A DNA stretch of 64,000 bases, taken from the NCBI GenBank assembly GCA_964389465.1, contig CAYMDK010000001.1, positions 86,852 to 150,851 of the forward strand, read 5' to 3'. The notes beneath the pieces were generated by a model. It did no database searches. It saw only the letters and a program-made list of their open reading frames with translations, and was not told the origin of the DNA. The stretch comes from an uncultured archaeon. Its GTDB lineage: Archaea; Thermoplasmatota; Poseidoniia; MGIII; CG-Epi1. A program made the position numbers and the translations under genes. Shown one piece after another: positions 28,734 to 59,884 of this stretch; position 1 is the first letter of the stretch, and each line of letters begins with the position of its first letter.

Positions 28734-28765
28734 AGCAGGAAAGATAAGTCAGAACAGGAGCTGAC

Positions 28766-30334: not shown

Positions 30335-30412
30335 TAAACCCCCTTTTCGTTCCAGACAATACTTACTATTGTTTTTGTAAAACTTAAAAACAACTGTGGC
30401 CTGCGTTGGATA

Positions 30413-31114
30413 ATGACTCTGGAAGGTCTGATAGGCTCCTTGGAGGATTTGAGCGAATTCAATCTAGAAGGTGTCTATGAAGCTGTTTCAAGAACCGCCG
30501 TGGGATTCAAGGACCTTGAGAAATGGATAGATTACGACTATCCCGTCTCTGACTCATATGGTCGGAAAATGGTGCATGATGGTGGTTTTTTCGAAGTGAT
30601 GGTTATGTGCTGGAAACCCGGAGATTATAGTGCTATACACGATCATGGGGAAGCTGAGTTTGGTGTGGTCAAGGTTTTTGGAGATACCGAACACGCCGCA
30701 TTCAAAATAGTGAATCAGAAACTTATCACTCTCGGGCGTACTATCATTGAAGCAGGAACAACGCTGGAAGTGGCTCCAGCATTGATTCATCAAATGGGAA
30801 ATCCGGGAGATAGGAATTTCTTCAGTTTGCACATCTATGTGAATCAGGCCACTGAAGGTGGAATTACGAGAGATTCCAGAATTTATGATTATAGCCGAAA
30901 CGCGATATTACGTGTTGATGGAGGGGCTTTCTATCTCCTGCCAGAAAGCGAGATTAAAGCCAGAGAGCCTCTCCCAGAAGCTGATTCCAGCACCAGGCAA
31001 CGGGACCTGAAGGAAGCCGGAAAGCGCGCGAAAGCTATGAAATGCGGGCCGGAGTACAAACGAATCCTGAATGAGGCGCCTCCAACTCTGGTCGAACCTC
31101 CATTAATCCAGTAA
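30413..31114 (+). CDS. Cupin-fold cysteine dioxygenase type I-like protein
   Basis: Cupin core with HDH metal-binding motif (YSAIHDHGEAEFGVV) and a downstream His (LHIYV). AT-rich codon usage. Confidence 0.6.
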   Translation: MTLEGLIGSLEDLSEFNLEGVYEAVSRTAVGFKDLEKWIDYDYPVSDSYGRKMVHDGGFFEVMVMCWKPGDYSAIHDHGEAEFGVVKVFGDTEHAAFKIVNQKLITLGRTIIEAGTTLEVAPALIHQMGNPGDRNFFSLHIYVNQATEGGITRDSRIYDYSRNAILRVDGGAFYLLPESEIKAREPLPEADSSTRQRDLKEAGKRAKAMKCGPEYKRILNEAPPTLVEPPLIQ

Positions 31115-31116
31115 AG

Positions 31117-31140
31117 TGGCGCCAGGAGAGTGTTCCGAAC
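31117..31140 (+). repeat. Direct repeat of the tRNA-Ser(CGA) 3' end (putative att-site remnant)
   Basis: tggcgccaggagag at 31117-31130 is identical to 31218-31231 (the tRNA 3' end including CCA). Extended similarity covers about 22/27 nt. A hairpin gaacctttt/aaaaggttc follows at 31141-31161. Confidence 0.6.
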
Positions 31141-31217
31141 GAACCTTTTGAGAAAAGGTTCATCAAAATCGTGAGTTCGGAATCACTATCGGAGCGCCAT
31201 GCGCCGTCCACGACGCA

Positions 31218-31303
31218 TGGCGCCAGGAGAGGGATTCGAACCCCCGTGGGGAGACCCCAGTGGTTTTCGAGACCACCGCCCTACCGGACTAGGCGATCCT
31301 GGC
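31218..31303 (-). tRNA. tRNA-Ser (anticodon CGA), class II with long variable arm, CCA encoded
   Basis: Reverse complement: acceptor GCCAGGA/TCCTGGC, 3-bp D stem, anticodon stem GTGGT/ACCAC with loop CTCGAAA, variable arm TGGGGTCTCCCCAC, T-arm GGGGGTTCGAATCCCTC. Confidence 0.8.
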
Positions 31304-31405
31304 GCGCAGGCGCCATTGTGGCGGGATGATAAGCATTAAGCCAGAGGCGGCGGCGGCAATTGACTGCCGCCGCCAACCGTTAATCCCGTCCACCGCTGGC
31401 TGCGC

Positions 31406-31612
31406 GTGATGCGACGCGTGACCGTCGGCGGCGAGGAGCGCGAGGTCGAGCTACCAGAGGGGGCGACCGCAGGCGAGCTGGTCGCGGCGCTGGGGCTGCA
31501 CCCGGACGGCGTGCTGGTGCTCGCCGAGGGGGAGCCGCTGCGGCCGGTGGCGCTCAATTCATCGCTGCCGGAAGGGGACATACGGGTCGTGCTGGTCGCC
31601 TCGGGCGGCTGA
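31406..31612 (+). CDS. ThiS/MoaD-family ubiquitin-like small protein ending in Gly-Gly (SAMP-like sulfur carrier/modifier candidate)
   Basis: 68 aa with a beta-grasp-like sequence and a C-terminal ...VLVASGG directly before the stop. GTG at 31406 or ATG at 31409. Confidence 0.55.
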   Translation: MMRRVTVGGEEREVELPEGATAGELVAALGLHPDGVLVLAEGEPLRPVALNSSLPEGDIRVVLVASGG

Positions 31613-31638
31613 AGGCAAGGATTAAACGCTCGGAAGGG

Positions 31639-33885
31639 GTGCGGGGGCGAATGTCCAGCGAGGAGCAGCTGCCGGAAACCGAATCGCCCGCCCCGGTCGA
31701 CCCCGAGGCGCAGGCGCCGCTGCCGGGGCATGAGCTGGGTGAGCGCCCGATTGCGTGGCGCTCGCGGCAGGAGGAAGTGCTGGTCAAGGTCAGCCGGCGC
31801 GAGAAGGATGAAATTGACTTCGTCATCGACGCATTCTGGATATTCGTCGCGCGTGTCCGCTCCGCCTCGCGGCCGCTGCTGGCGCTGGGGCTGCTGTTAA
31901 TCCTGCTCGGCGTCAGCCTCGCGGGCTGGCCGCAGGCTGCCCTCGGGCAGGACCGCAGCGGCTACTGGTATGTCACCGCAGTCGACCATGGCAGTCTGGC
32001 GCGCTACACCACCGACGGCGACTATCCCGACTTCGCACCCGGCGACACTTTCCTGCTGCAGGGCAACATCGAGTCCATCGAGTATTACGCCCCGCTCGAG
32101 GAGGCGAGCTGGCCGCAGCTGGTCCCGGCTCCGCAGGCGGCCGACGGGACACTGCTGGCGAACGGGTCGCTCGAATCACTCTTCGGCCAGTCCTCGAGTG
32201 CAGCGGCCAACTACTCGAGCGCACGGCTGGTGCGGCAGCAGTATTTCAGCAACCTTTCGGTCAGCGGATTCCTGTTCAACGAGGTCGATTTCGAGGATAT
32301 TGTCTTCGAGAACGTCGTCTTCGAGTCCGGCTTCTTTATCAACTGCGACTTCGAGCGCGTCGCGTTCCATAACGTCACGATTCGCGGTTCAGTGCTCTCA
32401 CACGTCGTGCTCTCTGAAGTCTTGTTACAGAACTCGGTCCTCGAAGAGGCGCGACTGGAGCATACCGCCGTGGACCAGATGGTGGTTCGCAGCACGGTCT
32501 GGGAAAACACCGTCAGTCTCCAGAGCAGCCTGCGCGGAATCAAGTTCGACCACGCGCAGCTGAATAACGGCAGCTTCCAGAAATCGCAGCTGGATGTAGT
32601 GCTGTTCCAGCAGACCCACGTCACCAATTTCACGCTGCTCAACACGCCGGTCACCAACGTCGTCGACGGCGATGACCTCGACTACACCTACATTGTCCTC
32701 CGCGGCACCACGGTCCGCGCGACGGGGAATCTGGAGCAACGGCTGCCGGTTGGCGCCTCAATCTACATGGACGTCACGGTCGTCGCTGAAGGTGGCGGGG
32801 CCGGGTCGGTAGCCAACTCGAGCTGGGTTGCCGGCAACGTGACAGGGGATGGCTTCACGACGCCTTTCGGCGAGCAGCCGGTCAACCTCAGCCGCGAGCT
32901 GCTGGTGGTTGCGCCCGAAGTGGTGCGGCCCACCTTCTGGTGGTCGGTTGGCTTCAACTCGTTCGTGCTGGCGGGCGCGATGCTGCTGGTCTACGCTGTT
33001 GGTGGCCATGCGGTAATCCTGGCGGTTACACGCTTCAGCTCGCCACTGCTCGCCACCATGGGAGGATTCCTGCTGCTTTTCCTTGCTATCCCCACCCGCG
33101 ACTTCCTGCTGGTTTCGCAGCTGATGCTGCTCTATTTCGTCCCACCGCTCGGCAAGGGGACCGTCATCCCGCTCGGGATTGCGGCCGGAATCAATCCGTG
33201 GGTGCTGGCGCTGGCGACCGCCTTCGTTGACATCATGGTCGGAGTTTTCCTGGCGTGGAACTTCGACCTTGCGCGCAAAATTCCCTTCGTCGGCGGCGGT
33301 ATCCGGCGAGTGCAGGCGAAGGGTAGCGAAATCATGGCGGCACAGCCGTGGATTGAGCGGCTGGCGTTCGCCGGCATTCTGCTCTTCGTGATGTTCCCGT
33401 TCCAGGGCTCCGGCTCGGTTGGCGGCACCCTGCTCGGCCGCTCGATGTCGATGACCCCTTACCGCATCCTCTCGGCCGTGGCGATTGGCGGCATCCTCGG
33501 GTCTTTCATAATCTCCGCCTCAATTGTCTTCGGCCTCGGCCTCGTCGGACAGATGGGGGCCTACGGTTTACTGATTGCACTGGTGGTGGCGCTGATTATC
33601 GTCACCCTCTGGTACACCTTCCGCCACTGGGACGAGCTGAGTCTCGACGAGTTCCAGGAAGTACTGGGGCTCCACCGCGAAGGCCTCATCGGCGCCCCGG
33701 TCGGCGCCGCGGCCGACCTGGCGGGCGCGGCGACCCTCGGTGTCTTTCGCGCCGTCGAGGGGACGGGGCAGGCAATCTCGAAGACCACCGCAACTGTGCT
33801 CGATACATTCCTGCCCGAGAGCGAGCGGAAGCAGCCGCCCGCCGACAAAACTAAGGGCGACGACGATGCGGAGGACGAGGAGTGA
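31639..33885 (+). CDS. Membrane protein with extracytoplasmic pentapeptide-repeat region and C-terminal polytopic domain, acidic tail
   Basis: About 25 consecutive pentapeptide-like repeats (FLFNEVDFEDIVFENVVFESGFFINCDFERVAFHNV...), then at least 8 predicted TM helices. C-terminal KTKGDDDAEDEE. Confidence 0.55.
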   Translation: MRGRMSSEEQLPETESPAPVDPEAQAPLPGHELGERPIAWRSRQEEVLVKVSRREKDEIDFVIDAFWIFVARVRSASRPLLALGLLLILLGVSLAGWPQAALGQDRSGYWYVTAVDHGSLARYTTDGDYPDFAPGDTFLLQGNIESIEYYAPLEEASWPQLVPAPQAADGTLLANGSLESLFGQSSSAAANYSSARLVRQQYFSNLSVSGFLFNEVDFEDIVFENVVFESGFFINCDFERVAFHNVTIRGSVLSHVVLSEVLLQNSVLEEARLEHTAVDQMVVRSTVWENTVSLQSSLRGIKFDHAQLNNGSFQKSQLDVVLFQQTHVTNFTLLNTPVTNVVDGDDLDYTYIVLRGTTVRATGNLEQRLPVGASIYMDVTVVAEGGGAGSVANSSWVAGNVTGDGFTTPFGEQPVNLSRELLVVAPEVVRPTFWWSVGFNSFVLAGAMLLVYAVGGHAVILAVTRFSSPLLATMGGFLLLFLAIPTRDFLLVSQLMLLYFVPPLGKGTVIPLGIAAGINPWVLALATAFVDIMVGVFLAWNFDLARKIPFVGGGIRRVQAKGSEIMAAQPWIERLAFAGILLFVMFPFQGSGSVGGTLLGRSMSMTPYRILSAVAIGGILGSFIISASIVFGLGLVGQMGAYGLLIALVVALIIVTLWYTFRHWDELSLDEFQEVLGLHREGLIGAPVGAAADLAGAATLGVFRAVEGTGQAISKTTATVLDTFLPESERKQPPADKTKGDDDAEDEE

Positions 33886-34946: not shown

Positions 34947-35684
34947 CTAGTCCGTTCTTGAAAGCCTATCAGAAATAAAGTCAATTACCTTTTGCAGATT
35001 TTTTTCGTTATCAAAATCCTCGACCTCAGCCCCGACACGGACAGACTCAGTCAGTAGTGGCAGACACCGTGTCAGTTCGTCAACTATTGTGACATGGGCA
35101 GTTTGAGCTGTTCTTGAAAGAGGGTTTAGATCAATAGTAATCACCTGCTTTCCCATATCCACCAGAGCTCGACAACGGTCTCCATCCTCAAGTGGAACAA
35201 GAACGACATCAGCCGAACCTATTCCGTCTGAACAGCATTTTGCCCTTTCAGACGTTAATCCAGGGATATTAGCATCATCGTTCTCCCCAAGTGCCTTTAC
35301 CCCGGCATCACCCATCATCCTAGTCAAGGCTGCAACCCGTTCCGGAGTTCGGTGGAACAGGTTTATTTCGACTTTGGCGCCACTTACCTCGGAAAGATGT
35401 GCAATTTCTCTGGCTGCCAGCGCGACAACATTCCCGTTAACCGAAATAACTGGATTGGTGGCACCAACCATCATGGATGCGGCGGCCCTGATTGCATCCA
35501 TCGCGGGCGGACAGGTTTGTTCACCTAACAGGTAATCGAACGCCTCGCCTCTCCCATGGGCAATCAACCCCTGCCTGGCGACGGCATCAGCAGCTTCTAC
35601 CAACTTCTCACGGGCCATGAGGGATTTGTATCTCGGGTGGTCTTCCGGGGGCAGGGTCACGTGACTAGTCCCACTCAAACTCAT
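34947..35684 (-). CDS. 4-phosphopantoate--beta-alanine ligase (archaeal phosphopantothenate synthetase, COG1701)
   Basis: Archaeal PPS signature region [41 protein letters not shown]. Start taken at MSLSGTSHV (35684), 17 nt after the upstream gene's stop. Track start TTG at 35741. Confidence 0.65.
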
Positions 35685-38613
35685 CCTCGTCGTCGCCGCC
35701 ACTTCCTCGCATTCTCCTGAGCAAGACAGCGATTCCTCCAACCGCAGCTATTGCAGGTATTGAATAGAACCATGGATTCAAGCCCTCCTCCACTTTTACT
35801 TCAGGAGCTGAGGATACAGAAACCATAACGCCTTGTGACGTTTCACCAGCAGAGACGGTGATGGTATGGTCGCCGCTTGTCGCTATCCAGTCGAATTGCG
35901 AGAAGCCGTCAGCACCTGCAACCAAATCAACCAAGGCCGTTGAGGCTACCTCGCCATCCACACTCCATGTCAGTTCTGCAATTCCATCAAGGCCCCCTGC
36001 GTTACTTACTATCACGAAGAAAGGCACGTTGTCACCCTCACTCAGATCTGGGGGAATAACTTGAATCGAGGCCAGTATCACTGAGAATTCTGGATGCACG
36101 ATAGACACGCTTACATTTCTCCATGTAGTGGCCCGCCCATCACTGGCGCTTATGGCGAGGTAGTAATCACCTTCATCCAATGCACTGGTGTCCCAGAACA
36201 AGCTACCGGATGGTGCCAAACCTGAAGAAATCGTGGTAAAACCCGTGTTCGAGGAATGCCTGAAAAGAATGTCTATTTCGAGGAGATCGCCGTCCGCATC
36301 CGCCACTGACCATTGCACATCCACGCCATCGTCAATAAGGCCGAAGGGAGCTGGTGAATAGATGAAAATTTCAGGGGCGTTGTTCGGTTGTGTATGATTG
36401 ATTTCAAGAGTATAATCACTACAGTCTTCACTCCCCAAATTACCGTCACTGACCGTTCCGCATACAAACCATTCACCGTCACCAATCTGGGAAGTGTCCC
36501 ATTGGTATTCTCCGTTGTTTGCAAGGCCCGTTTCTATGGTAACAGCGTCATCCAGATTCTCCGTCATGGAGTAGTAGAGAAGGCCAATCACCAATTCGTC
36601 ACTATCTGGGTCGGTGGCCTGCCATCGAATTACGTAGCTATCATCGGCGATGTCGCCCTGTGAACTAGGTGTATTGATGGTGATTTCTGGTGAATCGTTG
36701 TGCTCTATCCGGAGGGTCTCAGAAGTATAGTCAATTTTCTCTTGTGAGGTGGAGTCGGTGGCCACGCCCATCAAGTAGTAATCGCCTTCCGCTATTCCAG
36801 AGGTATCCCATTCATATTCTCCCGAATTTTCGAGATTAGCCGCAATCAGTTGCTTCTCATTGGGTTGTGTGTCTGTGTCATAATACAGGTCGATTGCGAC
36901 TTGATCGCCGTCAGGGTCAGAGGCCACCCACGTGATGGAATAGCTTCCATCAGCGATGGCATCCCCCGGCTCTCCCACTTCCATATCTGGTGGATAATTA
37001 GATGGTGAAATAATCGCAAAACTATTGTCACTGATATCGTCAACTGAAGTGCCTAGCTCATCAGTCAACGTTACTTTCAGAAAACTATCAGCAGAATTCT
37101 CGAAAGGCACTTCCCATTGGAAGGTACCTGTATCAGGCAAACCTTCAGCGATGGTTGTCCAATCTCCATCCGGGCCGTCCGTTGAATATTCCAGTTTTAC
37201 GCTACGGGACCCTGTGGTCGACGGAATTTCCGAGAGCCAGTGGATGAACCTGATAGACCCGCCACGGAAGGTTTCCATGCCGTCAGGATAGTCCATGTCC
37301 ACGCCTAGTGACGACACGGCCGTGCTTTCACGCCAGACTTTCACACTACCTGGGTAGCCTGCCTGGTCCGTTCCAAAACCAGCAATGATATCACGGTGTC
37401 CGTTGTGATCGAAATCCCCTACCTCCATGCGGTGCCCCTGTGCATTTCCCTGCAACGTGTTCTGGGACTTTACCCATCCACCGGTTTCGGTTGCAAGATA
37501 GGTTTCAACGATACCACTAGGAGTGAGGCCCACAATATCATCGTACTTATCCTGATTCATATCAGCTAATTTTATTGTCCGATAGGCTTGGTTCGGCAAT
37601 CCTGCAGAATTATCAGTCCAGCCACCCTCTCCGTCCCCAGAGAAGGCGTAGACATGACTATCATCGTAATCGACCGTGCATAGTGCTAGATCCACGAATC
37701 CGTCATTGTTGAAATCTCCCCAGTCGAGCGAGAACGGACTTTCATCTGAACCTGATTCAACTGGCAGGCCTGCGCTGGAGTCTGTCCAGCCTCCGTTTCC
37801 GTCACCAAGGTAGACCCAGACACCGTCACGAAGATTAGCTATAAGATCCAGGAACCCGTCTCGGTTGATATCAACGAAATAGCCCTGCAAAGTGCTGGCT
37901 CTGCCCATGATTATCCCGTCGTCCTGTTGAGTCCAATTACCGTCACCCGAGTTTGCAAAAGGAGTAAGGACCATATCCATCTGACCCCCTATCAAAACAT
38001 CCAGACGCCCGTCAGCATTATAGTCTCCAACATCAATAGACCAGGCGTCCTGACTGTTACAGCCCTCACACTCTTTCTCTACCACGTTCTCGTCCCAATT
38101 TCCTCCAGAGCCTCGATAGAAGGCACTGACGTTATATTTGCCATGGCTACCAGCCACCACATCCATGTTACCGTCATTGTCAACGTCGCCAAAATCAAAT
38201 CCGCCGTAAGAGTGATGGTTAATCACTTCAGTTCCAAACGTGGATGAAACATTCGACCACGTATTACCATCCCATTGCATTACGTGGAGAGAACGGTCCC
38301 CCTGTCCCTTGCGCGGGCCCAAAAAGAAAGCCTCATCAGTCCCATCTTCGTCAATATCATGAAGCCGGACCTTGGAAACCCAGAGACCTTGTGTGGGTAG
38401 ACCATTGCTAACATCATTGTACTCCGGGGTACCTTGTGCTTCAGCATTATGGGGCAGGTAGTAAAGCCCGGAAAATATCATCGATAAAATCAGGAGAAGG
38501 CTGAGAGTGGGAGAGTGATTCTGTGACCATAGAATTCTACCATGGGTGTTTGAAATATTTAAGCCCCGTTGGAAATATCTAGTCCTGTGCACGCGAGTGG
38601 ACGCGGCAAACAC
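35665..38613 (-). CDS. Cell-surface protein: FG-GAP/VCBS beta-propeller repeats + three Ig-like repeat domains + C-terminal TM anchor and acidic tail
   Basis: FG-GAP repeats ([68 protein letters not shown]). Three ~100-aa repeats of the form ([22 protein letters not shown]...GEYEWDTS...GDYYL). C-terminus [37 protein letters not shown]. The exact start is uncertain (38613 or the internal ATG at MIFSG). Confidence 0.7.
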
Positions 38614-39068: not shown

Positions 39069-41207
39069 GTGCGGGGCCGTTCCCGCATGGCAAAAGTAAG
39101 GACGTCACCGTATCGGCAGCCGCCAACCCCCGAAGGGCTCCGGGCGATTGAGGAGGGCACGCTCGAATACTTCGACCCCGAGATGTACTCCAACTTCAAC
39201 ACCGAGGTGCTGGAGGAGTATCTCGAGGAAAAAACGCGCACCGAGGGGTTCGGCTCGACAACCTGGAAGTGGGACCAGGTGCTGCTGGGGCTGGTCATCG
39301 GCATCCTGTTCGCGGTCATCAATCAGTACGTCGGCCTCAAGGTGGGGCTGATTGTCACCGGCTCCTGGTACGTCGCCTACCTGGCGGCGATGGCGCTGCG
39401 CTGGACGCCGGGCGAGGTGAACATCTCCGCCTCCGCCTCGACCGGCGCCTCAATGGTCTGCACCGGCTTCGTCTTCACCTATCCCGCCATCTACCTGCTC
39501 GCCTACTCCTCAAAATATCGCATGGCTGATGGCAGCCACCTCGTCGACAGTTCGTTGCTGCTGCCCGAATCGTGGGTGCTGGCGGGGGTGGCGCTGGTCG
39601 CCTCGATTCTGGCCGGGTTCCTTGGCGTGCTCTACTTCATCATCTTCCGGCGGGTCTGGCTGGTCGAGGACCCGCTGCCGCTGCCGGGTTTCGAGGCCAA
39701 CGTCAAGCTGATGGACATCGCGCAGGAGACCTCGACCGGATCGGTCGAGAGCGCGCGCCACTCAATCTGGCTAGTCGGAATCTCTACGCTTCTGGTAGGT
39801 CTCTTCACCTTCCTGCGTGACTTCCCCGTTTTCAACACGGGGAGTGTCGACGCGGCAGGCGAACCGGTGCGCATCTCTGTCCTCGCCAAGGGAGCTCATG
39901 AACTGGGAATTGAGCGCTATTACGAAGGAGGTTCGACCCTGATGGTGCCTCTTGACTCGGGGATTACCAACTACACCTGGCTCGGCTTCGAGTTCACCCC
40001 GCTGATGGGGGCCATTGGCTGGTTCATGAAATTCCGGGTCGCAATGCTGGTGAGCCTCGGGACGTTTTTCACATGGTTTGTCGTGACGCCGATGGCGTTC
40101 GCCCTTGATTATCCCTTTTATTACCCGGTCGACGGACTCTACCACGCCGTCTCCGCCTACCCCGCGGCTTCGCTGAAGTCGTATGCCTACGTCGCGCGCC
40201 CGATGGCGATTGGCGCCATTCTGGGCGGTGGCATCACCGCGCTGCTGAAGATGGCACCGGTCTTCCGCACCACCGCAGCGGATGTTATCGACATCTTCAC
40301 CGGAGGCGACGCCGAGGCGAGCCGCCGCGACTACGTCAAGGGCAAGGGGTGGTATGAGTGGCCGGTGACGCATATCCCGGTCATGCTGGTGGTGACGCTG
40401 GTCGGGATTACGCTCGTATTCGCGACCGAGTTTGGCGTCCTGCCGTCGTTCATCTTCGCGCTGGTGCTCTGCCTGACCACCTTCGCGCTGGGCGCGATTG
40501 CAGTCAAGGTAATGGGTGAGACCAGCATCGAGCCCGTATCGGGAACGAGCTTCATCGTGCTGCTGATGCTGGTGCTGATTTTCAAGAACCTGCTCGGGCT
40601 GGCCCCCAGCGATGCGGCGCTGCTGGCGCTGGTCGGCACGACCGTCTTCGGCGGCGCCATCTCGATGTCGGGGACCGTGATTACGGACTACAAGGCAGCG
40701 CTGTATGTCGGCAACCGGCCAATGCACATCATGAAGACCGAACTGGTCGGCATCATCCCCGGCACGATTGTCTCAGCACTCTTTGCCGGCATCCTCTCGC
40801 TGGCGCTCGCGCGCGGCGAACTGGTGCTCTACGCACCGCAGGCGAACGCGTTTGCCGCTTTCGCGCAAATCATGCTCGGTGGCGAGACGCCGTGGCAGTT
40901 GCTGACGCTCGGATTCGGCATCGGCATCTTCATGGAACTGCTGACCGGCATGGGGACCGCCTTTGGGCTGGGAATGTACCTGCCGATGGTGGTGACGCTG
41001 CCGATGGTCGTCGGCGGGGCGCTGCGCGACCTGTGGGAGCTGAAGGTGCTGGAGCCGGCGGTCGAGCGCGACGGTCTCGGCGAGAAGGGACGCACGCTGA
41101 AGCTGCTCAACACCTACATGATTGCGACCGGGCTGATTGTGGGCGAGGCGCTGATGGGGACCGTGCTCGCCATCTACTACGTACTGCCACTGCTGGGCGG
41201 AGGCTAA
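39069..41207 (+). CDS. OPT-family (oligopeptide transporter-like) polytopic membrane protein
   Basis: About 700 aa with at least 14 predicted TM helices. The TDYKAALYVGNRP and Gly-rich helix patterns resemble the OPT superfamily. Confidence 0.55.
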   Translation: MRGRSRMAKVRTSPYRQPPTPEGLRAIEEGTLEYFDPEMYSNFNTEVLEEYLEEKTRTEGFGSTTWKWDQVLLGLVIGILFAVINQYVGLKVGLIVTGSWYVAYLAAMALRWTPGEVNISASASTGASMVCTGFVFTYPAIYLLAYSSKYRMADGSHLVDSSLLLPESWVLAGVALVASILAGFLGVLYFIIFRRVWLVEDPLPLPGFEANVKLMDIAQETSTGSVESARHSIWLVGISTLLVGLFTFLRDFPVFNTGSVDAAGEPVRISVLAKGAHELGIERYYEGGSTLMVPLDSGITNYTWLGFEFTPLMGAIGWFMKFRVAMLVSLGTFFTWFVVTPMAFALDYPFYYPVDGLYHAVSAYPAASLKSYAYVARPMAIGAILGGGITALLKMAPVFRTTAADVIDIFTGGDAEASRRDYVKGKGWYEWPVTHIPVMLVVTLVGITLVFATEFGVLPSFIFALVLCLTTFALGAIAVKVMGETSIEPVSGTSFIVLLMLVLIFKNLLGLAPSDAALLALVGTTVFGGAISMSGTVITDYKAALYVGNRPMHIMKTELVGIIPGTIVSALFAGILSLALARGELVLYAPQANAFAAFAQIMLGGETPWQLLTLGFGIGIFMELLTGMGTAFGLGMYLPMVVTLPMVVGGALRDLWELKVLEPAVERDGLGEKGRTLKLLNTYMIATGLIVGEALMGTVLAIYYVLPLLGGG

Positions 41208-41250
41208 TCCTCATATATAGCGCGGTCTTCGACGGGCTCCGGGACGAAGC

Positions 41251-41676
41251 ATGGCCAAGGAAGAATACGAGACGCCGCTGATTGATGCGTACAACCGCAC
41301 GCATCTGGATGTGCTGCACGAGGATGGCAGCTGGTACCACCCTTTCCTGCCCGAAGGAGTCTTCATGGAGGACCTGGGGCCGGTCATCGAGGAGCAACTG
41401 GTTAAGACCTACAACGAGTGCGAGCGGGAAGCCGAGAAGTACTTCGAGGAGCGCGTACGCGAGCGCTTCGCCTCGGTCTTCGCTGACGCCAACCCGGTTG
41501 ACCTTCGCGGGCTGCTGCCGAAGAAACCCCCGGTCGAATGGGCTGATCTGCCGGTAGAGGTGCAGCGAGAACTGCAGAATGTCCACGACACGGCCCAAGA
41601 AGAGGGAATTACCGAGAGAACGTTGAAAAAGCGGGTCCGCCAGTACCTTATCGACCAGTACATTATCGAGGATTAA
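41251..41676 (+). CDS. Acidic hypothetical protein (141 aa), first gene of the KaiC-like operon
   Basis: ORF ends 2 nt before the KaiC-like gene. TATA tcatatatag 31-40 nt upstream. No recognisable domain. Confidence 0.5.
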   Translation: MAKEEYETPLIDAYNRTHLDVLHEDGSWYHPFLPEGVFMEDLGPVIEEQLVKTYNECEREAEKYFEERVRERFASVFADANPVDLRGLLPKKPPVEWADLPVEVQRELQNVHDTAQEEGITERTLKKRVRQYLIDQYIIED

Positions 41677-41678
41677 CC

Positions 41679-42494
41679 ATGGCGGACGAAAAAATGAAAC
41701 CGAAGAGGGTAATGCTTGACCCTCGTGGCGGCCGTCCCCGCGAAAAATCCAAGACCCATATTGAGGGACTGGACCGCATCCTCAATGGCGGTATCCCCAT
41801 CGGGAACACCACCCTGCTGGCGGGCACTGTTGGCTCTGGAAAGACGACGCTGGCGATGGAATACCTGATTAACGGTGCCAAGCGCGGCGAAAACACGTGC
41901 TACATCTCGGTCACCGAACCTTCCTCCAAAATGCTCGAGAACCTGCGCACCTACGGCTTTTTCGAGGATTCGCTAGTTACTGAAGGAAAACTGAACGTCT
42001 TCGACCTGGGTATTATCAACGACCGGCTCGGTGTCGAGCGGCTCGACGGTTCCTATACTTCCAAGGACATGGAGGCACTACTGGGAGCGTTCGAGGATAT
42101 CGTCGACGAACTTCAGGTTACGCGACTGGTGATTGACTCGATTACCGCCATCTGCTACCAGCTCCCCGACCGCGGCGCCATCCGCAACTTCATTTTCCGG
42201 CTGGGGCAATTCCTGGCCACTTTCGGCTGCACCACCATGCTCATTTCGGAGACGGTCGTCGATGCACGCACGCAGACCTACTCCATCTTCGGCGTTGAGG
42301 AAGCTGTCGCCGACGGTGTGGTCCTGATGGGGAATGTCCAGCGGCAGGGGGACCTGCTGCGCACGCTGCAAGTGGTCAAGATGCGGGGTGCCAAACACTC
42401 GCGCTCGCGGCAGCTGGTGGAGCTGACGCCAATCGGGCTCAGCATCGTGCCGTTGCTCAAGTGGGGACAGGACACGGGGCAGGTGTTCACTTGA
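41679..42494 (+). CDS. KaiC/RecA-superfamily ATPase (canonical Walker A/B)
   Basis: GLDRILNGGIPIGNTTLLAGTVGSGKTTLAMEY (Walker A) and VIDSITAI (Walker B). Single KaiC-like domain of 271 aa. Confidence 0.75.
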   Translation: MADEKMKPKRVMLDPRGGRPREKSKTHIEGLDRILNGGIPIGNTTLLAGTVGSGKTTLAMEYLINGAKRGENTCYISVTEPSSKMLENLRTYGFFEDSLVTEGKLNVFDLGIINDRLGVERLDGSYTSKDMEALLGAFEDIVDELQVTRLVIDSITAICYQLPDRGAIRNFIFRLGQFLATFGCTTMLISETVVDARTQTYSIFGVEEAVADGVVLMGNVQRQGDLLRTLQVVKMRGAKHSRSRQLVELTPIGLSIVPLLKWGQDTGQVFT

Positions 42495-43048
42495 ACGTCC
42501 TCAAGCAAGTCGTCGCAAGCATCAAGGAGGGCGACGCCCTGACGGCGGTTTCACTCAACTCTGACAAATATCGCCCCACGTCAACTGAAATCGTAAAGCA
42601 CCTGCTGAGCAAAAAGCTGGGCGGAATCTACATCACCACGACCCGACCCTCGGGTAGCATCATTGCCGACCTCGAAAAAATCAAGGCTGACCTGGGCGAC
42701 CTCTATTTCGTGGATATGATTTCGTTGACCGTCGGTGGCGAAACTGAGGACCCGCGTACCATGTTCATCGAGTCACCTACAATGCTCGAGTCGGTGCTGC
42801 TCAATATCGGGTTGCTCGAGCGGCGCATCAAGGCCAAGCGACACTTCGTGATGTTCGACTCCGTTAACGGCCTCAGCATCTATTCCGAAAACCGGGTCCT
42901 GAAGGAATTCATCAACGTCCTCGCCAACACCATGCGACTCCGCAAGACGTATACCATGATGCTTACTGTGGAAGAGCAGACCAGCGATGACCTTACCTCG
43001 ATGCTGAAAACGCTGACTGACCGCTACATCGAAAATACAGATGGCTGA
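42461..43048 (+). CDS. Degenerate KaiC/RecA-like domain protein (no Walker A)
   Basis: Same-strand ORF overlapping its neighbours by 4-34 nt (possible TTG start at 42491). RecA-like secondary-structure pattern but no P-loop. Confidence 0.5.
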   Translation: MGTGHGAGVHLNVLKQVVASIKEGDALTAVSLNSDKYRPTSTEIVKHLLSKKLGGIYITTTRPSGSIIADLEKIKADLGDLYFVDMISLTVGGETEDPRTMFIESPTMLESVLLNIGLLERRIKAKRHFVMFDSVNGLSIYSENRVLKEFINVLANTMRLRKTYTMMLTVEEQTSDDLTSMLKTLTDRYIENTDG

Positions 43049-43802
43049 AATCGTAACCTCCGGCATTCCCCGCCTCGATGCGGCGCTGCTCGAAGGCAAA
43101 GGGTTCAAGATGGGGAGCTCAATCCTGATTGAGGGTACTTCCGGGGCGGGCAAGGAACTGCTCGCCAAGCAGTATGCGGCAGCGGGCGTCGGCGCCGAGA
43201 ATGTCGTCTATTTCTCGACCGACGAAACCTCCGAGGAGCTGGTCGAGACTTTCGAGCACTACAACTGGCCCACTGACATGCGGATTGTCAACATTGGCAC
43301 CCAGTATTTCGAGAAGGTTCTGGCGCGCGACCTGCAGGCCTCCCGCTTCAAGCAGGAAGGACTCTCCGTAAGCGAGCTGCGCAACGTCGGCGCCTACGGT
43401 GCGACCGCTGACCAGATTAACTTCGTCTCAGACATGGCGTACGAAATCTCGAAGCTGCGCTCGCCCTTCCGGGTCGTCGTCGATTCGCTCGATTTCTTCC
43501 TGCAATATTACTCGCTGGCTGAGGTACTCTCGTCGATGCGGACCATCAAGGAATACGCGCAGGCGAACGGCGGCCTCGTGCTCTACACCGTCTCGCAGGA
43601 CGCGCACGATTCGAGGACGCAGAGCCAGATTGAGGCTGTCGCCGACGTCATTATCGAGCTCGAGGTTGGCCGCATGGCGGCCGAGTTCGAGAATCGCATG
43701 ATTATCAAGAAGATTCGCAACCACCCGGAGAAGGCGTCGGTGCTGATCTACGCCGTCACCGAGCACGGCATAACGCCCGAGATGATTACCCGCGTCGCCT
43801 GA
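43041..43802 (+). CDS. KaiC/RecA-like ATPase paralog with variant Walker A (GTSGAGKE)
   Basis: GIPRLDAALLEGKGFKMGSSILIEGTSGAGKELLA, Walker B VVVDSLD. ATG overlaps the upstream stop. Confidence 0.65.
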   Translation: MAEIVTSGIPRLDAALLEGKGFKMGSSILIEGTSGAGKELLAKQYAAAGVGAENVVYFSTDETSEELVETFEHYNWPTDMRIVNIGTQYFEKVLARDLQASRFKQEGLSVSELRNVGAYGATADQINFVSDMAYEISKLRSPFRVVVDSLDFFLQYYSLAEVLSSMRTIKEYAQANGGLVLYTVSQDAHDSRTQSQIEAVADVIIELEVGRMAAEFENRMIIKKIRNHPEKASVLIYAVTEHGITPEMITRVA

Positions 43803-46164: not shown

Positions 46165-48000
46165 GTGGGGCGCCCCTTGTTCCCGTTCCCGGAGCTCCGC
46201 AAGGGGCAGGATGCGATGCTGGATGACTGCCGCACGGCGTTCGCTGGCGGCGAGCACCTGCTGGCGCACGCCCCCACCGGGCTCGGGAAGACCGCCGCGG
46301 CGCTGACCGCCGCGGTCGAGGTGGCGCGCGAGCGGGGGCTGCTGGTGGTGGCGCTGACGTCGCGGCAGACACAGCACGCGATTTTCGTCGAGACGCTGAA
46401 GCGCATCCATGCGCAGCAGCCGCTGAAAATCGTGGACGTGATTTCCAAGCAGGACATGTGTCCACGCGACGACCTTGACGAGAGTCGCTACGGCGTCTTC
46501 CAGGCGGTCTGCACCGCTCTGGTGCGCAACAACGACTGTCGCTACCACGCCGGCTACCGTCCCGAATTCCTGCCTCAGGTTTTCGATTCGCCGCTCTCGG
46601 CCGCCGACCTGAAGGCGCTCTGCCGCGAGGAGGTGCAATGCCCGCACCGCGTCGCGATGGAGGCGGCGCAGGAATGCGATGTGCTGGTGTGCGACTACAA
46701 TTACCTCTTCACCCCGTGGTCCGAAGTGATGTGGGAGCGCATCCAGCGGCCGCTGGAGGAGGTGCTGCTCATCGTGGACGAGGCGCACAACCTGCCCGAC
46801 CGCATCCGGCTCTCCGCATCGCCGACGCTCTCGCTACAGCGGCTTCGCGAGGCGCAGCGCGAGGCGGGCCGCGCGCTGCGCCCGCAGCTCTCAATCCTGG
46901 AGCGGCTGGTCGCGAGCCTGACCGGCCACGAGGGCGAGAAGGAGATTGACGGCGGCAGCGTGACGCGCATGCTCGACGCGGCGCTCAAGCAAAAGCTGAC
47001 CGACCTGGAGGGCTTCGTCAAGTTGCTCGAGCGGTCGGCCCAGCGGCGGCTGCAGCGCGGCAAGGTGGCACGCATGGGTGACGTGGCGGATTTCCTGCAC
47101 CACTGGCGCTTCCTGAAGGAGGGCAGCGACCTGCGACTGGCACACGGCGGCGACAAGCCGTGGCAGCGCAAGCTTTCGCTGCGGCTGCTCGACCCCGCCT
47201 CAATCAGCGCACCGGTCTTCCGCGCCGTGCGCGGCTCGGTGCTGATGTCGGGCACGCTGAAGCCGCGCGGATTCTACCGCGACCTGCTCGGGCTCGACGA
47301 GGAACGCTCCCGCAAGGCGACCTACAGCTCACCCTTCCCCCCCGAGAACCGACTGCTGCTCTGCGTCGACGACGTCTCGACACTCTATCGCAACCGCGGC
47401 GACCCACTCTACCGCAAGCTGGCGGCGTCGCTGACCGCCGTAGCACAGGCGACGCCGGGCAACGTCGCAGCATTCTTCCCGAGCTACGCGCTGCGCGACG
47501 ACGTCGCCAGCCGGCTCGGCGACCATGGCAAAACGCTGCTGCTCGAGGAGCGCGGTGCATCCCCGGCAAAGCGGACGGCGCTGCTCGGCCGACTACAGCA
47601 GCGCAACGCGCTGCTGCTGGCGGTGATGGGGGGCATTTTCGGCGAGGGGGTCGACTACCCCGATAACCTGCTCGCCGCGGTCGCTGTCATCGGGATACCG
47701 GTGCCGCCGCCGTCGCTCGAGCAGAAGAAGCTGGAAGAGTATTTCGAGCGAAAATTCGGCGACGGAAAGGGGCGTCTCTACGCACAGACCTACCCGGCGG
47801 TCAACCGCGTGCTGCAGGCGGCCGGCCGTTGCATCCGCAGCGAAACCGACCGCGGCGTGGTGCTGCTTTACGACAACCGGCTGGGGCACCGCCCCTACCG
47901 CCGCTTCCTCCCGAAAGAAGTGCGGCACTGCACCAGCAGCGCGGTGCCGGCGCTGGTGCGCGGGTTCAACGCCCCCAGAACGGGGAATCCGCCTTCTTGA
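46165..48000 (+). CDS. xpd: ATP-dependent 5'-3' DNA helicase, XPD/Rad3 (DinG) family with FeS-cluster domain
   Basis: Walker A AHAPTGLGKT, DEAH box LIVDEAHNL, four Cys between them (C..C..C..C FeS domain), and C-terminal helicase motifs (GIFGEGVDY). Confidence 0.8.
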   Translation: MGRPLFPFPELRKGQDAMLDDCRTAFAGGEHLLAHAPTGLGKTAAALTAAVEVARERGLLVVALTSRQTQHAIFVETLKRIHAQQPLKIVDVISKQDMCPRDDLDESRYGVFQAVCTALVRNNDCRYHAGYRPEFLPQVFDSPLSAADLKALCREEVQCPHRVAMEAAQECDVLVCDYNYLFTPWSEVMWERIQRPLEEVLLIVDEAHNLPDRIRLSASPTLSLQRLREAQREAGRALRPQLSILERLVASLTGHEGEKEIDGGSVTRMLDAALKQKLTDLEGFVKLLERSAQRRLQRGKVARMGDVADFLHHWRFLKEGSDLRLAHGGDKPWQRKLSLRLLDPASISAPVFRAVRGSVLMSGTLKPRGFYRDLLGLDEERSRKATYSSPFPPENRLLLCVDDVSTLYRNRGDPLYRKLAASLTAVAQATPGNVAAFFPSYALRDDVASRLGDHGKTLLLEERGASPAKRTALLGRLQQRNALLLAVMGGIFGEGVDYPDNLLAAVAVIGIPVPPPSLEQKKLEEYFERKFGDGKGRLYAQTYPAVNRVLQAAGRCIRSETDRGVVLLYDNRLGHRPYRRFLPKEVRHCTSSAVPALVRGFNAPRTGNPPS

Positions 48001-57974: not shown

Positions 57975-58175
57975 GTGGAATTCAGGGACTTCGCGGCGGC
58001 GCTGGAATTCGTCAACCGGGTCGCTGAAATTGCCGAGGAACTGAACCATCACCCCGACATCCTGCTCCACGGCTGGAACAGAGTGCGCATCACCAGCTGG
58101 AGCCACGATGTCGGAGACATTACTGACCGCGACCATGCGCTGGCTGGTCGGATTAACACCCTCATCAACGGCTGA
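57975..58175 (+). CDS. Pterin-4a-carbinolamine dehydratase (PCD/DCoH) homolog, possibly N-terminally truncated or frameshifted
   Basis: E.F..F.DF..A..FVNRVAEIAEELNHHPD...W..V.I.....D...IT..D..LA..I matches the PCD fold. The in-frame upstream sequence (GWSENSKHGWLEREVEF) continues the family alignment but has no start codon; GTG at 57975 is the first one. Confidence 0.6.
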   Translation: MEFRDFAAALEFVNRVAEIAEELNHHPDILLHGWNRVRITSWSHDVGDITDRDHALAGRINTLING

Positions 58176-58232
58176 AACCGGTTTTATCGTCGGGGGCATT
58201 GATATTTATACCATTGTGGTGCGTGCCCCTGT

Positions 58233-58376
58233 ATGACAGAAGCCTACTGTGTCAAGTGCAAGTCCAAGCGAACCATGTCCAACGCCGCCCAGGTCACCAT
58301 GAAGAACGGCCGCAAGGCGATGAAGGGCACCTGCCCTACCTGCAGCACCGGCATGTACCGCATCCTGGGAAACTAG
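58233..58376 (+). CDS. 47-aa zinc-ribbon protein (C-x2-C ... C-x2-C), not in ORF track
   Basis: MTEAYCVKCKSKRTMSNAAQVTMKNGRKAMKGTCPTCSTGMYRILGN. TATA atatttatac 22-31 nt upstream. High-GC codon bias. Confidence 0.5.
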   Translation: MTEAYCVKCKSKRTMSNAAQVTMKNGRKAMKGTCPTCSTGMYRILGN

Positions 58377-58380
58377 GACT

Positions 58381-59463: not shown

Positions 59464-59884
59464 ATTGCCCTATTGTGTAGGTGTTTTTGAGATATTGGGG
59501 TGTTGGTGGTGGCGGGGAAGTTGACATATCACCCACTGCCGCAGATAGTAGCTGCCGTATTAGAGAGAAAAGAAGGTGGGGGGAGAGGACGTATCCCAAA
59601 TACCAAAAGGGGCGATTCTACTGTTGGAAGGGGGACGGGCGGTGTACCATTCGACAATGGAAACAATCTCAAAGAAACTATGGACATCATAAAAAGCACC
59701 GCGGGGAACTCGGGCGAGACCCCTTGATTTCGTCTGGAAAATTTTTTATCTACTTTATATATTTATCGAGAAATGTATATTATAACAAACCGTCGAATTA
59801 GAAAATCAAATTTCCAGAGGAAACAAAGGGGTTGCACAGTATACACCATGTGCATTTCTCGTTTAGACGGGTGCCTCTATTTTT

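What the first reader, a model, noticed from the sequence alone, without database searches (positions are those of the whole stretch)
41251..43802. Four-gene operon: small acidic protein plus three consecutive KaiC/RecA-like paralogs, two with inactivated or variant P-loops
Three tandem single-domain KaiC-like genes overlap by 4-8 nt. The first has canonical Walker A/B, the second lacks a P-loop entirely, and the third has GTSGAGKE (Glu replacing the Ser/Thr). This pattern of one active and two degenerate subunits suggests an obligate hetero-oligomeric ring, like split KaiC CI/CII domains or pseudo-ATPase regulators. An uncharacterised 141-aa acidic protein is encoded immediately upstream. KaiC-like ATPases in archaea act as signal-transduction or regulatory switches, for example in archaellum and phototaxis networks. 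This arrangement looks like an undescribed module.
Basis: partly seen in the sequence, partly recalled or inferred. Interest (0 to 1): 0.6.

Follow-up and report, generated by a model that had tools for sequence, protein, structure and literature searches.

The report
Conserved KaiC-like ATPase trio operon
An uncultured deep-sea archaeal group (Marine Group III) always carries a tight four-gene operon: one intact KaiC-type ATPase, two progressively degenerate copies, and a small protein from an unannotated family. It probably forms a mixed ATPase complex of unknown function, and is a new variant of a known archaeal theme rather than a new kind of system.

Summary
The window comes from Marine Group III euryarchaeote CG-Bathy2. 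It carries four tightly packed + strand genes behind their own TATA-type promoter:
- g0, 141 aa, acidic, no known family.
- g1, 271 aa, a canonical KaiC-CI-like ATPase.
- g2, 185 aa, a marginal KaiC match with no P-loop, Arg in place of the catalytic Glu, and no C-terminal Lys/Arg-finger region.
- g3, 253 aa, KaiC-like with Walker A GxSGxGKE.

All four genes occur in the same order in 39 of 39 genome or first-round loci and 50 of 50 metagenome loci long enough to judge. g1 and g2 overlap by 4 nt in 37 of 38 loci. dN/dS is 0.02-0.10 for each gene against close relatives. g2 is therefore not a frameshift fragment, and the trio is co-conserved.

In one divergent clade g3 has also lost the Walker lysine, so g1 is the only consistently competent ATPase.

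An exhaustive profile search shows that g0 belongs to a tiny family of 33 cluster representatives. Its distant members carry no KaiC neighbours. They sit next to TBP or the PolD large-subunit gene, and some carry Lys-rich tails.

A hetero-oligomeric ATPase with g0 as partner is the best reading but remains an inference. Function is unknown. Inactivated KaiC domains and KaiC paralog networks are already described in archaea, so interest is moderate.

The parts
41202..41223 (+). Conserved promoter block (GGCTAA-N-TATA-like box; CATATATA at 41212-41219), about 35 nt upstream of the g0 ATG
   Evidence: Upstream regions of 19 loci share GGCTAA(g)TATCTTATAAGGCC, or GGCTAATCCTCATATATAGCGC in the window. 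The block is present whatever the upstream gene is, OPT or an SSF transporter. Function as a BRE/TATA promoter is inferred from position and consensus.
41251..41676 (+). g0: 141-aa acidic helical protein of an unannotated family
   Evidence: No Pfam, NCBIfam or PADLOC hit. 142 close homologues, nearly all 141-142 aa where complete. The N-terminus MAKEEYETPLID.YNR.H and the C-terminal TLKKRVR.Y are invariant. The AF2 model has pLDDT 74 with helices 44-80, 102-118 and 122-137. The invariant N-terminus is modelled with low confidence. No PDB fold match. dN/dS 0.02-0.09.
41679..42494 (+). g1: canonical single-domain KaiC-CI-like ATPase
   Evidence: PF06745 at E 5e-54. The best alignment stretch falls on the CI half of natural full-length KaiC chains (E about 1e-44), and isolated CI-domain chains match at about 1e-33. 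PH0186 and PH0284 match at about 1e-27. Invariant across orthologues: GTVGSGKT, T79-E80, D153 and K234-M-R236-G, plus an N-terminal DPRGG.PR.K motif and a C-terminal PLLKWG motif. dN/dS about 0.03.
42491..43048 (+). g2: degenerate, C-terminally truncated KaiC-like protein (pseudo-ATPase)
   Evidence: PF06745 at 26.9 bits, profile positions 46-168 only. 13 of 14 orthologues hit PF06745. No P-loop. Invariant R52 aligns with the catalytic Glu of g1 (YITTTRPS against YISVTEPS). The Walker-B-like FDS is kept. The protein ends before the KxR finger region. The start overlaps the g1 stop by 4 nt in 37 of 38 loci. dN/dS 0.055-0.095 against the window.
43041..43802 (+). g3: KaiC-like protein with variant Walker A, G(T/S)SG(A/S)GKE
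   Evidence: PF06745 at E 2e-23 and DUF7504 at E 8e-12. hhalign against the g1 family gives 96% probability. Invariant: E39, D61-E62, D148, K224 and R226. K38 becomes Ile in the L044 clade. dN/dS about 0.04.

Best explanation
SHOWN. This is a self-contained, clade-wide operon of Marine Group III archaea with its own promoter and four tightly spaced genes. It encodes one fully equipped KaiC-CI-type ATPase (g1). It encodes a paralogue (g3) that keeps the catalytic carboxylates, the Walker B Asp and the Lys/Arg finger, but has Glu in place of the Mg-binding Ser/Thr. One clade has lost even the Walker Lys of g3. It encodes a remnant paralogue (g2) with no P-loop, Arg in place of the catalytic Glu and no finger region. 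It also encodes a small acidic helical protein (g0) of an unannotated family.

INFERRED.
- The three paralogues assemble into one asymmetric RecA/KaiC-type oligomer.
- Only sites built on the g1 P-loop must hydrolyse ATP.
- g3 acts as a nucleotide-sensing or non-catalytic partner that can still donate a finger to a neighbouring site.
- g2 is a structural or adaptor subunit that can neither bind ATP nor complete a neighbour's site.
- g0 is the stoichiometric partner or client. Its invariant N-terminal peptide is modelled with low confidence, consistent with a segment that folds only on docking to the ATPase.
- Distant g0 relatives are encoded beside TBP or the PolD large-subunit gene, and some carry Lys-rich tails. 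The output is therefore most likely on a DNA- or transcription-associated process, with the module acting as an ATP-driven regulatory switch rather than a clock or a motor.
For: Family assignment and motifs.

Co-inheritance and order: all four genes are present in order in 39 of 39 and 50 of 50 informative loci.

Coupling: the g1/g2 overlap is -4 nt in 37 of 38 loci. g2/g3 spacing is -8 to +3 nt and g0/g1 spacing is +2 to +6 nt, with one locus at +58.

Own promoter: the block is conserved whatever the upstream gene is.

Purifying selection acts on all four genes, including g2.

g3 lacks the Walker Lys in the L044 clade while its other motifs stay invariant.

g0: the strongly conserved N-terminus has low pLDDT. 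The family has only 33 representatives at E<=1e-3 among 1.84 billion.

Distant g0 members:
- Long forms carry 2-4 repeats of the g0 C-terminal module plus Lys-rich tails.
- Long forms lie immediately upstream of the PolD DP2 gene. In L053 and L054 they overlap its start by 10 nt.
- 207-aa forms start 1 nt after the TBP gene ends.

The general precedent for KaiC-like ATPases as archaeal regulatory switches comes from PMC5847659 and PMC13286277.
Against: - No physical evidence of a heteromer.
- The g2 monomer model was poor (pLDDT 63.6) and gave no significant fold match. Profile-profile alignment of g2 to g1 covers only 17 columns. Its KaiC ancestry therefore rests on marginal but repeated Pfam hits.
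- The DNA/transcription link for g0 is guilt by association in other lineages, where no KaiC genes lie nearby. The C-terminal extension of the 207-aa forms has no significant HTH match. g0 itself is acidic.
- Nothing in the neighbourhood of the window points to a target. The flanking genes are an OPT transporter, a peptidase-like lipoprotein, EamA and RidA.
Confidence: 0.45

Rival explanations
1. The trio is a recombination, repair or replication mediator complex. It would resemble RadA-paralogue (aRadC/RadB) or eukaryotic Rad51-paralogue assemblies, which combine active and degenerate RecA-fold subunits. g0 would be a DNA- or polymerase-associated adaptor.
For: - g1 matches the Sulfolobus RadA paralogue SSO2452 (2w0m, E 4e-14) and, weakly, RadA/RadB models.
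- Long g0 relatives are translationally coupled to the PolD large-subunit gene.
- RadA lies about 10 kb downstream and an XPD helicase 2.4 kb downstream in the window.
- From my own knowledge: P. furiosus RadB interacts with PolD, and mixed active/inactive Rad51-paralogue complexes are common.
Against: - g1 is far closer to KaiC CI (E 1e-44 to 1e-54) than to any RadA/RadB model. It scores 17-29 bits against cut-offs of 172-361.
- No DNA-binding domain (HhH, Zn finger) is present in any of the three paralogues.
- The RadA and XPD neighbourhood is not conserved next to the module. In L001 RadA is upstream, and downstream genes differ between clades.
Confidence: 0.2
2. The three paralogues do not form one complex. 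They are independent homo-oligomeric KaiC-like proteins, with g2 perhaps a small inhibitor or decoy, and they merely share an operon.
For: Single-domain archaeal KaiC homologues such as PH0186 and PH0284 have solved structures deposited with 3 and 6 chains of a single protein. hhalign shows the paralogues are old and divergent (26% identity between g3 and g1).
Against: Order and spacing are invariant and co-occurrence is 100% across species down to 44% g2 identity. g2 lacks both cis and trans active-site elements. g3 lacks the Walker Lys in one clade yet stays under strong constraint. That is hard to explain for stand-alone enzymes.
Confidence: 0.15
3. The module regulates or energises the neighbouring OPT oligopeptide transporter or nutrient uptake.
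For: An OPT gene lies upstream of g0 in most loci. MGIII archaea are described as protein and peptide scavengers (PMC4660358).
Against: The operon has its own conserved promoter. A 2-kb SSF transporter gene is inserted between OPT and g0 in many loci. The L043/L044 clade has the module without OPT. OPT transporters need no ATPase (own knowledge).
Confidence: 0.07
4. The module is a KaiC-type diel timer or hourglass.
For: g1 resembles the KaiC CI domain. In epipelagic relatives a rhodopsin gene lies directly downstream on the other strand.
Against: - There is no double-domain KaiC and no CII-type Ser/Thr phosphosites. Glu-Ala sits at those positions.
- Neither the four operon proteins nor the seven flanking ORFs scanned match a KaiA or KaiB family.
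- The module is equally conserved in bathypelagic genomes, including this one, which lack the rhodopsin neighbour.
Confidence: 0.05

Closest known systems
Cyanobacterial KaiC, CI domain (e.g. PDB 4tl6-4tle, 1tf7)
   Same: g1 aligns end to end with CI (E about 1e-44 to natural full-length KaiC chains, about 1e-33 to isolated CI domains). It has Walker A, one of the two catalytic Glu, the Walker B Asp and the K-x-R-G finger. g3 keeps most of these motifs.
   Different: The proteins here are single-domain rather than a CI-CII fusion. There is no Ser/Thr phosphosite pair and no kaiA or kaiB. Three distinct paralogues replace a homohexamer. NCBIfam KaiC equivalog scores are 125-160 bits against cut-offs of 408-546.
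Archaeal single-domain KaiC-like ATPases (P. horikoshii PH0186 / PH0284; TIGR03877, TIGR03880, TIGR03881)
   Same: Same size and domain as g1. E about 1e-27 to the solved structures and about 1e-36 to the TIGR models.
   Different: g1 falls well below every curated cut-off (about 125 bits against 249-307), so it belongs to none of these named subfamilies. To my knowledge those proteins are not described with a fixed trio plus a g0 partner.
Inactivated KaiC-like domains (iKaiC) of the archaeal KaiC signalling network (Makarova, Galperin and Koonin 2017, as cited in PMC5847659)
   Same: g2, and functionally g3, are KaiC-family domains with disrupted catalytic motifs that are retained under selection beside an active paralogue.
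   Different: The described iKaiC domains are mostly fused to REC, HalOD1 or other signalling domains in Halobacteria and methanogens. Here they are stand-alone, translationally coupled genes in Poseidoniia with a new small partner. I could not read the primary paper because it is not held.
ArlH (FlaH) of the archaellum motor
   Same: A single-domain KaiC-like protein with non-canonical motifs that works with other proteins. g3 and g2 give weak FlaH/ArlH model hits.
   Different: Scores are 26-56 bits against cut-offs of 194-215. None of the seven flanking ORFs scanned matches an archaellum family.
Pseudo-symmetric RecA-fold hetero-rings with degenerate subunits (Elp4/5/6, Rad51-paralogue complexes, F1/V1 alpha-beta)
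   Same: Working analogy only. Several RecA-fold paralogues, some unable to bind or hydrolyse ATP, form one assembly. The N-terminal 66 residues of g3 hit the Elp4 family PAXNEB at 31 bits.
   Different: No demonstrated homology beyond the shared P-loop region. Assembly is not shown here.

Membership tests
Pfam PF06745 (KaiC / RecA-superfamily ATPase domain) | Whole-protein score at or above the gathering threshold (26.6 bits) | tested here: met
   g1 scores 183.5 bits and g3 83.5 bits. g2 scores only 26.7-26.9 bits over profile positions 46-168, which is borderline, but 13 of 14 orthologues match at E<0.01.
Circadian clock protein KaiC (NCBIfam TIGR02655 / NF006799) | Equivalog score cut-off (546 / 408 bits) and a two-domain CI-CII architecture of about 500 aa | tested here: not met
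   g1 scores 125 and 160 bits, g3 32 and 75 bits. All three proteins are single-domain, 185-271 aa.
Circadian clock protein KaiC | CII Ser/Thr autophosphorylation pair | tested here: not met
   The CII 'ST' of the KaiC homologue 8zn6 (u157215) aligns with E208-A209 of g1. The equivalent g3 segment is QIEAVAD. The identity of ST as the phosphosites rests on my own knowledge of KaiC.
Circadian clock protein KaiC | kaiB (and kaiA) partner genes nearby | tested here: not met
   None of the four operon proteins or the seven flanking ORFs scanned matches a KaiA or KaiB family. The g0 model is all-helical and has no PDB fold match.
ArlH / FlaH | NCBIfam NF052589 / NF004723 cut-offs (215 / 194 bits) and location in an arl operon with ArlI/ArlJ | tested here: not met
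   The best score is g3 at 56 bits. The neighbours are an OPT transporter, a glyoxalase-family protein, a peptidase-like lipoprotein, EamA and RidA.
RadA / RadB recombinases | NCBIfam equivalog cut-offs (172-361 bits) | tested here: not met
   g1 scores 17-29 bits. A genuine RadA gene is elsewhere in the window, at about 53.8-54.3 kb.
Named archaeal KaiC subfamilies (TIGR03877, TIGR03880, TIGR03881, TIGR03878) | Hypothetical-equivalog cut-offs (232-307 bits) | tested here: not met
   g1 scores 40-125 bits and g3 35-44 bits.
Pfam PF24336 (DUF7504, an uncharacterised archaeal KaiC-related family) | Gathering threshold of 27 bits | tested here: met
   g3 scores 46.4 bits over profile positions 1-179 of 179. 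The match overlaps the stronger KaiC hit, so it adds no functional information.
Elp4 / PAXNEB (PF05625) | Gathering threshold of 28 bits with coverage of the 366-position profile | tested here: inconclusive
   g3 scores 31.4 bits, but only residues 4-69 align to profile positions 18-83, the shared P-loop region.
Inactivated KaiC-like domain (iKaiC concept) | KaiC-family domain with Walker A and catalytic residues disrupted but retained under selection | tested here: met
   g2 has no P-loop and has Arg at the catalytic Glu position, with dN/dS 0.055-0.095. g3 has GKE, or GIE in one clade.
Hetero-oligomeric RecA-fold ring | Physical co-assembly of the paralogues | not testable with these tools
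The evidence is indirect: co-occurrence and overlapping or closely spaced reading frames.
Anti-phage defence systems (PADLOC) | Match to a defence-system protein model | tested here: not met
   Only weak partial P-loop matches to mad8, at E 4e-6 and 1e-3. The locus is syntenic core genome.

The most novel reading that the evidence does not exclude
The three paralogues form a pseudo-symmetric KaiC-type ring, an archaeal counterpart of Elp456 or Rad51-paralogue assemblies. Its single obligatory ATPase (g1) drives binding and release of g0. On this reading g0 is the founding member of an undescribed small domain family that in other Thermoplasmatota is encoded with TBP or PolD and carries histone-H1-like Lys-rich tails. 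The module would then be a new ATP-dependent regulator of basal transcription, replication or chromatin in Poseidoniia.
Probability: 0.15. Interest if true: 0.7.

Novelty: new variant of a known kind. Interest (0 to 1): 0.42.

Why it matters
KaiC-family ATPases have been proposed as the native signalling hubs of archaea, but very few have a known partner or output. This operon offers a clean natural case. One active subunit and two degenerate subunits are locked together across a whole uncultured marine order, and there is a defined candidate client, g0. The g0 family's other genomic contexts, beside TBP and PolD, point to information processing. The module could be reconstituted from four small soluble proteins. 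That would test how pseudo-ATPase subunits shape KaiC-type switches, and it would give a first function to a domain family that currently has no annotation. No long-standing question is resolved by the sequence evidence alone.

Tried and rejected
- **Frameshift or pseudogene origin of g2.** Rejected. It is a separate ORF of 182-191 aa in every locus and dN/dS is below 0.1.
- **GTG 42461 as the g2 start.** Rejected as less likely. The codon is embedded in g1's invariant Lys-Trp codons. The -4 overlap start is ATG in most loci and most database orthologues are 185-187 aa.
- **KaiB- or KaiA-like nature of g0.** Rejected. The model is all-helical with no PDB match.
- **Fold search for g2.** The model was too poor (pLDDT 63.6) and nothing was significant. 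KaiC chains appeared only at probability 0.33-0.44.
- **Profile-profile alignment of g2 to g1 and g3.** Uninformative apart from 17 columns around the catalytic-Glu strand.
- **Defence-system hypothesis.** No PADLOC support.
- **g0-KaiC fusion proteins (Rosetta stone).** The long g0-family proteins turned out to be repeats plus Lys-rich tails, not KaiC fusions. No KaiC-like ORF lies within 5-7 kb of them.
- **HTH assignment for the C-terminal extension of the 207-aa g0 relatives.** No significant Pfam hit. Xre-like HTH reaches only E 0.034 in one of three.
- **Metagenome scan with the long g0 forms.** Found nothing.
- **Taxonomy of the distant g0 carriers.** Only one is named, 'Thermoplasmata archaeon'.
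- **The key review (Makarova et al. 2017, mBio).** Not held. Its content is cited only through PMC5847659 and PMC13286277.
Full report
**1. What is in the sequence**

The region holds four + strand ORFs.
- g0 runs 41251-41676 (141 aa).
- g1 runs 41679-42494 (271 aa).
- g2 ends at 43048.
- g3 runs 43041-43802 (253 aa).

The ORF lister starts g2 at GTG 42461. A TTG at 42491 overlaps the g1 stop as TTGA. In orthologous loci this position is usually ATG, and most database orthologues are 185-187 aa. The upstream GTG/ATG falls inside g1's invariant Lys-Trp codons, so its conservation is explained by g1. I therefore take g2 as 42491-43048 (185 aa). g2 and g3 overlap by 8 nt (ATGGCTGA). g0 and g1 are 2 nt apart.

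The exact g2 protein is named in NCBI as a hypothetical protein of 'Marine Group III euryarchaeote CG-Bathy2'. The window is therefore an MGIII (Poseidoniia) archaeal genome fragment with about 60-67% G+C.

**2. Family assignment and motifs**

*g1* is a strong KaiC-domain protein.
- PF06745 gives E 5e-54.
- Its best alignment stretch lies on the CI half of cyanobacterial KaiC (E about 1e-44). It also matches PH0186 and PH0284 (about 1e-27) and the Sulfolobus RadA paralogue SSO2452 (4e-14).
- The top PDB hit, 8zn5 (1e-53), is a designed KaiC. Its high score probably reflects a consensus-like sequence.
- In the residue-level alignment and the family alignment, several motifs are invariant: Walker A GTVGSGKT, T79-E80 (KaiC CI has Glu-Glu at this position), Walker B D153 and K234-M-R236-G (the KaiC CI Lys/Arg finger motif).
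- The CII 'ST' pair aligns with E208-A209. g1 is therefore CI-like and lacks the canonical phosphosites.
- g1 also has an invariant N-terminal DPRGG.PR.K motif and a C-terminal PLLKWG motif outside the core domain.

*g3* matches PF06745 at E 2e-23 and also the uncharacterised archaeal family DUF7504 at E 8e-12.
- It aligns with the g1 family at 96% hhalign probability and 26% identity.
- Its P-loop is G(T/S)SG(A/S)GKE. E39 is invariant.
- D61-E62, D148, K224 and R226 are also invariant.
- In the most divergent clade (L044 and five further independent sequences) the P-loop is GSPGSGIE. The Walker lysine is gone while all the other motifs remain.
- ATP hydrolysis by g3 therefore cannot be essential to the module in that clade.

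*g2* matches PF06745 only at the threshold: 26.7-26.9 bits against 26.6, over profile positions 46-168.
- 13 of 14 orthologues match independently.
- It has no PDB sequence match.
- Where g1 has its P-loop, g2 has no such motif.
- The strand YITTTRPS aligns with g1's YISVTEPS, so an invariant Arg (R52) sits at the catalytic-Glu position.
- A Walker-B-like FDS is kept.
- The protein ends shortly after the TVEEQT strand, before the region that carries the Lys/Arg finger in g1 and g3.
- The AF2 monomer model was poor (pLDDT 63.6) and gave no significant fold match.

*g0* has no Pfam, NCBIfam or PADLOC match.
- It is acidic, with pI 4.64.
- It is highly conserved. Its 142 close homologues are nearly all 141-142 aa where complete and 57-97% identical.
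- The N-terminus (MAKEEYETPLID.YNR.H.D) and a C-terminal TLKKRVR.Y motif are invariant.
- AF2 (pLDDT 74) predicts helices at 44-80, 102-118 and 122-137. Residues 1-30 have low confidence despite being the most conserved part.
- Foldseek finds nothing in the PDB.

**3. Conservation as a unit**

A scan of one genome per GTDB species with the g0 alignment returned 41 loci. Many are explicitly labelled MGIII or Poseidoniia (CG-Epi1, CG-Bathy1, single-cell genomes); many others carry only generic archaeal labels.

In every locus with enough downstream sequence, all four ORFs are complete and in the same order. This holds for 39 of 39, counting the window and four metagenome contigs. A second, independent scan of metagenomes with g2 motifs gave 80 loci. 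All 50 with room for the four genes have them in order. Some contigs occur in both sets.

Spacing between the genes is nearly fixed.

| Gene pair | Spacing |
|---|---|
| g1/g2 | -4 nt in 37 of 38 loci |
| g2/g3 | -8 to +3 nt |
| g0/g1 | +2 to +6 nt, one locus at +58 |

Amino-acid identity to the window varies by gene.

| Gene | Identity to the window |
|---|---|
| g1 | 73-97% |
| g3 | 63-98% |
| g0 | 49-98% |
| g2 | 44-97% |

dN/dS against close relatives is 0.02-0.06 for g0, about 0.03 for g1, 0.055-0.095 for g2 and about 0.04 for g3.

A block GGCTAA-N-(C)TTATAA / CATATATA lies about 35 nt upstream of the g0 ATG. It is conserved whether the upstream gene is the OPT transporter or an inserted SSF transporter. 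I read this as the operon's own BRE/TATA promoter, which is an inference.

Downstream genes differ between clades. Epipelagic relatives have rhodopsin, GYD and RidA. This window has a peptidase-like lipoprotein, EamA and RidA. The conserved unit is therefore g0 to g3.

**4. The wider g0 family**

An exhaustive profile search of 1.84 billion cluster representatives found only 33 proteins at E<=1e-3. Besides MGIII-type proteins and fragments, there are two other forms.

- *Long forms, 300-520 aa.* They have an N-terminal g0-like domain, then 2-4 repeats of g0's C-terminal two-helix module (YLPQKP...KTIRKQIRKYL), then Lys-rich low-complexity tails. One is from a 'Thermoplasmata archaeon' MAG. These genes lie immediately upstream of the PolD large-subunit (DP2) gene. 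In L053 and L054 they overlap its start by 10 nt.
- *207-aa forms.* They carry an extra C-terminal segment and start 1 nt after the TBP gene ends.

No KaiC-like ORF lies within 5-7 kb of any of these. A profile built only from the distant members still hits window g0 at E 6.5e-41, so the homology is solid. The extra C-terminal segment has no significant HTH match.

The link between g0 and the KaiC trio is therefore specific to MGIII and the L043/L044 clade. The other contexts of the g0 domain suggest, but do not prove, an association with DNA, transcription or replication.

In the window, TBP lies 29 kb away at 11930-12484 on the minus strand. RadA lies at about 53.8-54.3 kb. There is no second g0-like or KaiC-like gene.

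**5. Mechanism**

In RecA/KaiC rings, each ATP site is built from the P-loop, Walker B and catalytic Glu of one subunit, plus a Lys/Arg finger from the next subunit. This is established knowledge of the family. Applied to the motifs found here:
- g1 can both host a site and donate a finger.
- g3 can donate a finger. It hosts an altered site, or in one clade a dead one.
- g2 can do neither.

Strict co-inheritance, overlapping or closely spaced reading frames and strong constraint on the degenerate members fit one asymmetric assembly. In it g1 would be the motor or switch, g3 a sensing or non-catalytic partner and g2 a structural or adaptor element. g0 would be the partner or client, binding through its N-terminal peptide, which is invariant but modelled with low confidence.

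I put about 0.45 on this overall picture. I put about 0.6 on 'they form a heteromer' and about 0.3 on 'the output is DNA- or transcription-related'.

The rivals are as follows.
- A RadA-paralogue-like DNA repair or replication mediator (0.2).
- Independent homo-oligomers sharing an operon (0.15).
- Regulation of the OPT transporter (0.07).
- A diel timer (0.05). This is disfavoured by the absence of a CII-type domain and phosphosites, by the absence of any KaiA or KaiB match among the operon proteins and scanned flanking ORFs, and by equal conservation in bathypelagic genomes.

**6. Comparison with what is known**

The proteins belong to the KaiC/RecA domain family. They fail the curated cut-offs of circadian KaiC, ArlH/FlaH, RadA/RadB and the named archaeal KaiC subfamilies. 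The locus lacks the context that defines those systems.

Inactivated KaiC-like domains and a KaiC-centred archaeal signalling network are already described (PMC5847659, citing Makarova et al. 2017). KaiC-like regulators such as CirA and ArlH are under study (PMC13286277). I found no paper that mentions this operon or KaiC in MGII or MGIII.

I therefore class it as a new variant of a known kind. It is a lineage-wide, fixed three-paralogue KaiC module with a partner from an unannotated family.

**7. Verdict**

Interest is moderate (0.42). The most novel element is not the trio but the g0 family and its alternative TBP and PolD gene contexts.

Noticed in passing
L046-L054 (metagenome and MAG contigs); homologous to window 41251-41676: Distant members of the g0 family occur in two other fixed contexts. 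Long forms with repeats and Lys-rich tails lie directly upstream of the PolD large-subunit gene, overlapping its start by 10 nt in L053 and L054. 207-aa forms start 1 nt after the TBP gene ends. The family has no annotation anywhere.
   Followed up: partly
L001-L003, about 7517-8356 (L001), minus strand: In epipelagic MGIII relatives a rhodopsin gene and a GYD-domain gene lie directly downstream of g3 on the opposite strand. This bathypelagic window has a peptidase-like lipoprotein and an EamA transporter there instead.
   Followed up: partly
L044 7562-8320 and P0281-P0286: A divergent clade of the module has lost the Walker-A lysine of g3 (GSPGSGIE) while keeping the Glu and all other motifs. 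This clade also lacks the upstream OPT gene and has a 58-nt g0-g1 spacer.
   Followed up: partly
L026 (PCCQ01000039.1): A contig carrying the complete archaeal OPT-g0-g1-g2-g3 locus is deposited under a 'Candidatus Neomarinimicrobiota bacterium' MAG. This is most likely a mis-binned MGIII contig.
   Followed up: no
window 28001-32000, 36001-38000, 58001-62000: These stretches have clearly lower G+C (0.50-0.56) than the 0.60-0.68 background. The 36-38 kb dip coincides with the 982-aa FG-GAP / Ig-like surface protein gene (35665-38613, minus strand). These may be acquired or fast-evolving surface-protein regions.
   Followed up: no
window 9906-9993 and 12604-12681: ARAGORN calls seven tRNAs but Rfam's tRNA model reaches its threshold for only five. 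tRNA-Leu(CAA) and tRNA-Pro(CGG) are not recovered. They may be atypical or intron-containing, or they may be false calls.
   Followed up: no
window 46165-48000 (+), about 53.8-54.3 kb (+), 11930-12484 (-): An XPD/Rad3-type helicase gene lies 2.4 kb downstream of the operon. RadA lies about 10 kb downstream and TBP about 29 kb upstream. None is syntenic with the module in other clades.
   Followed up: partly
PDB 8zn5 (best sequence hit of g1): The best solved-structure match of g1 (E 1e-53) is a designed KaiC, ten orders of magnitude better than natural KaiCs. This is probably a consensus-sequence effect and should not be read as special relatedness.
   Followed up: no
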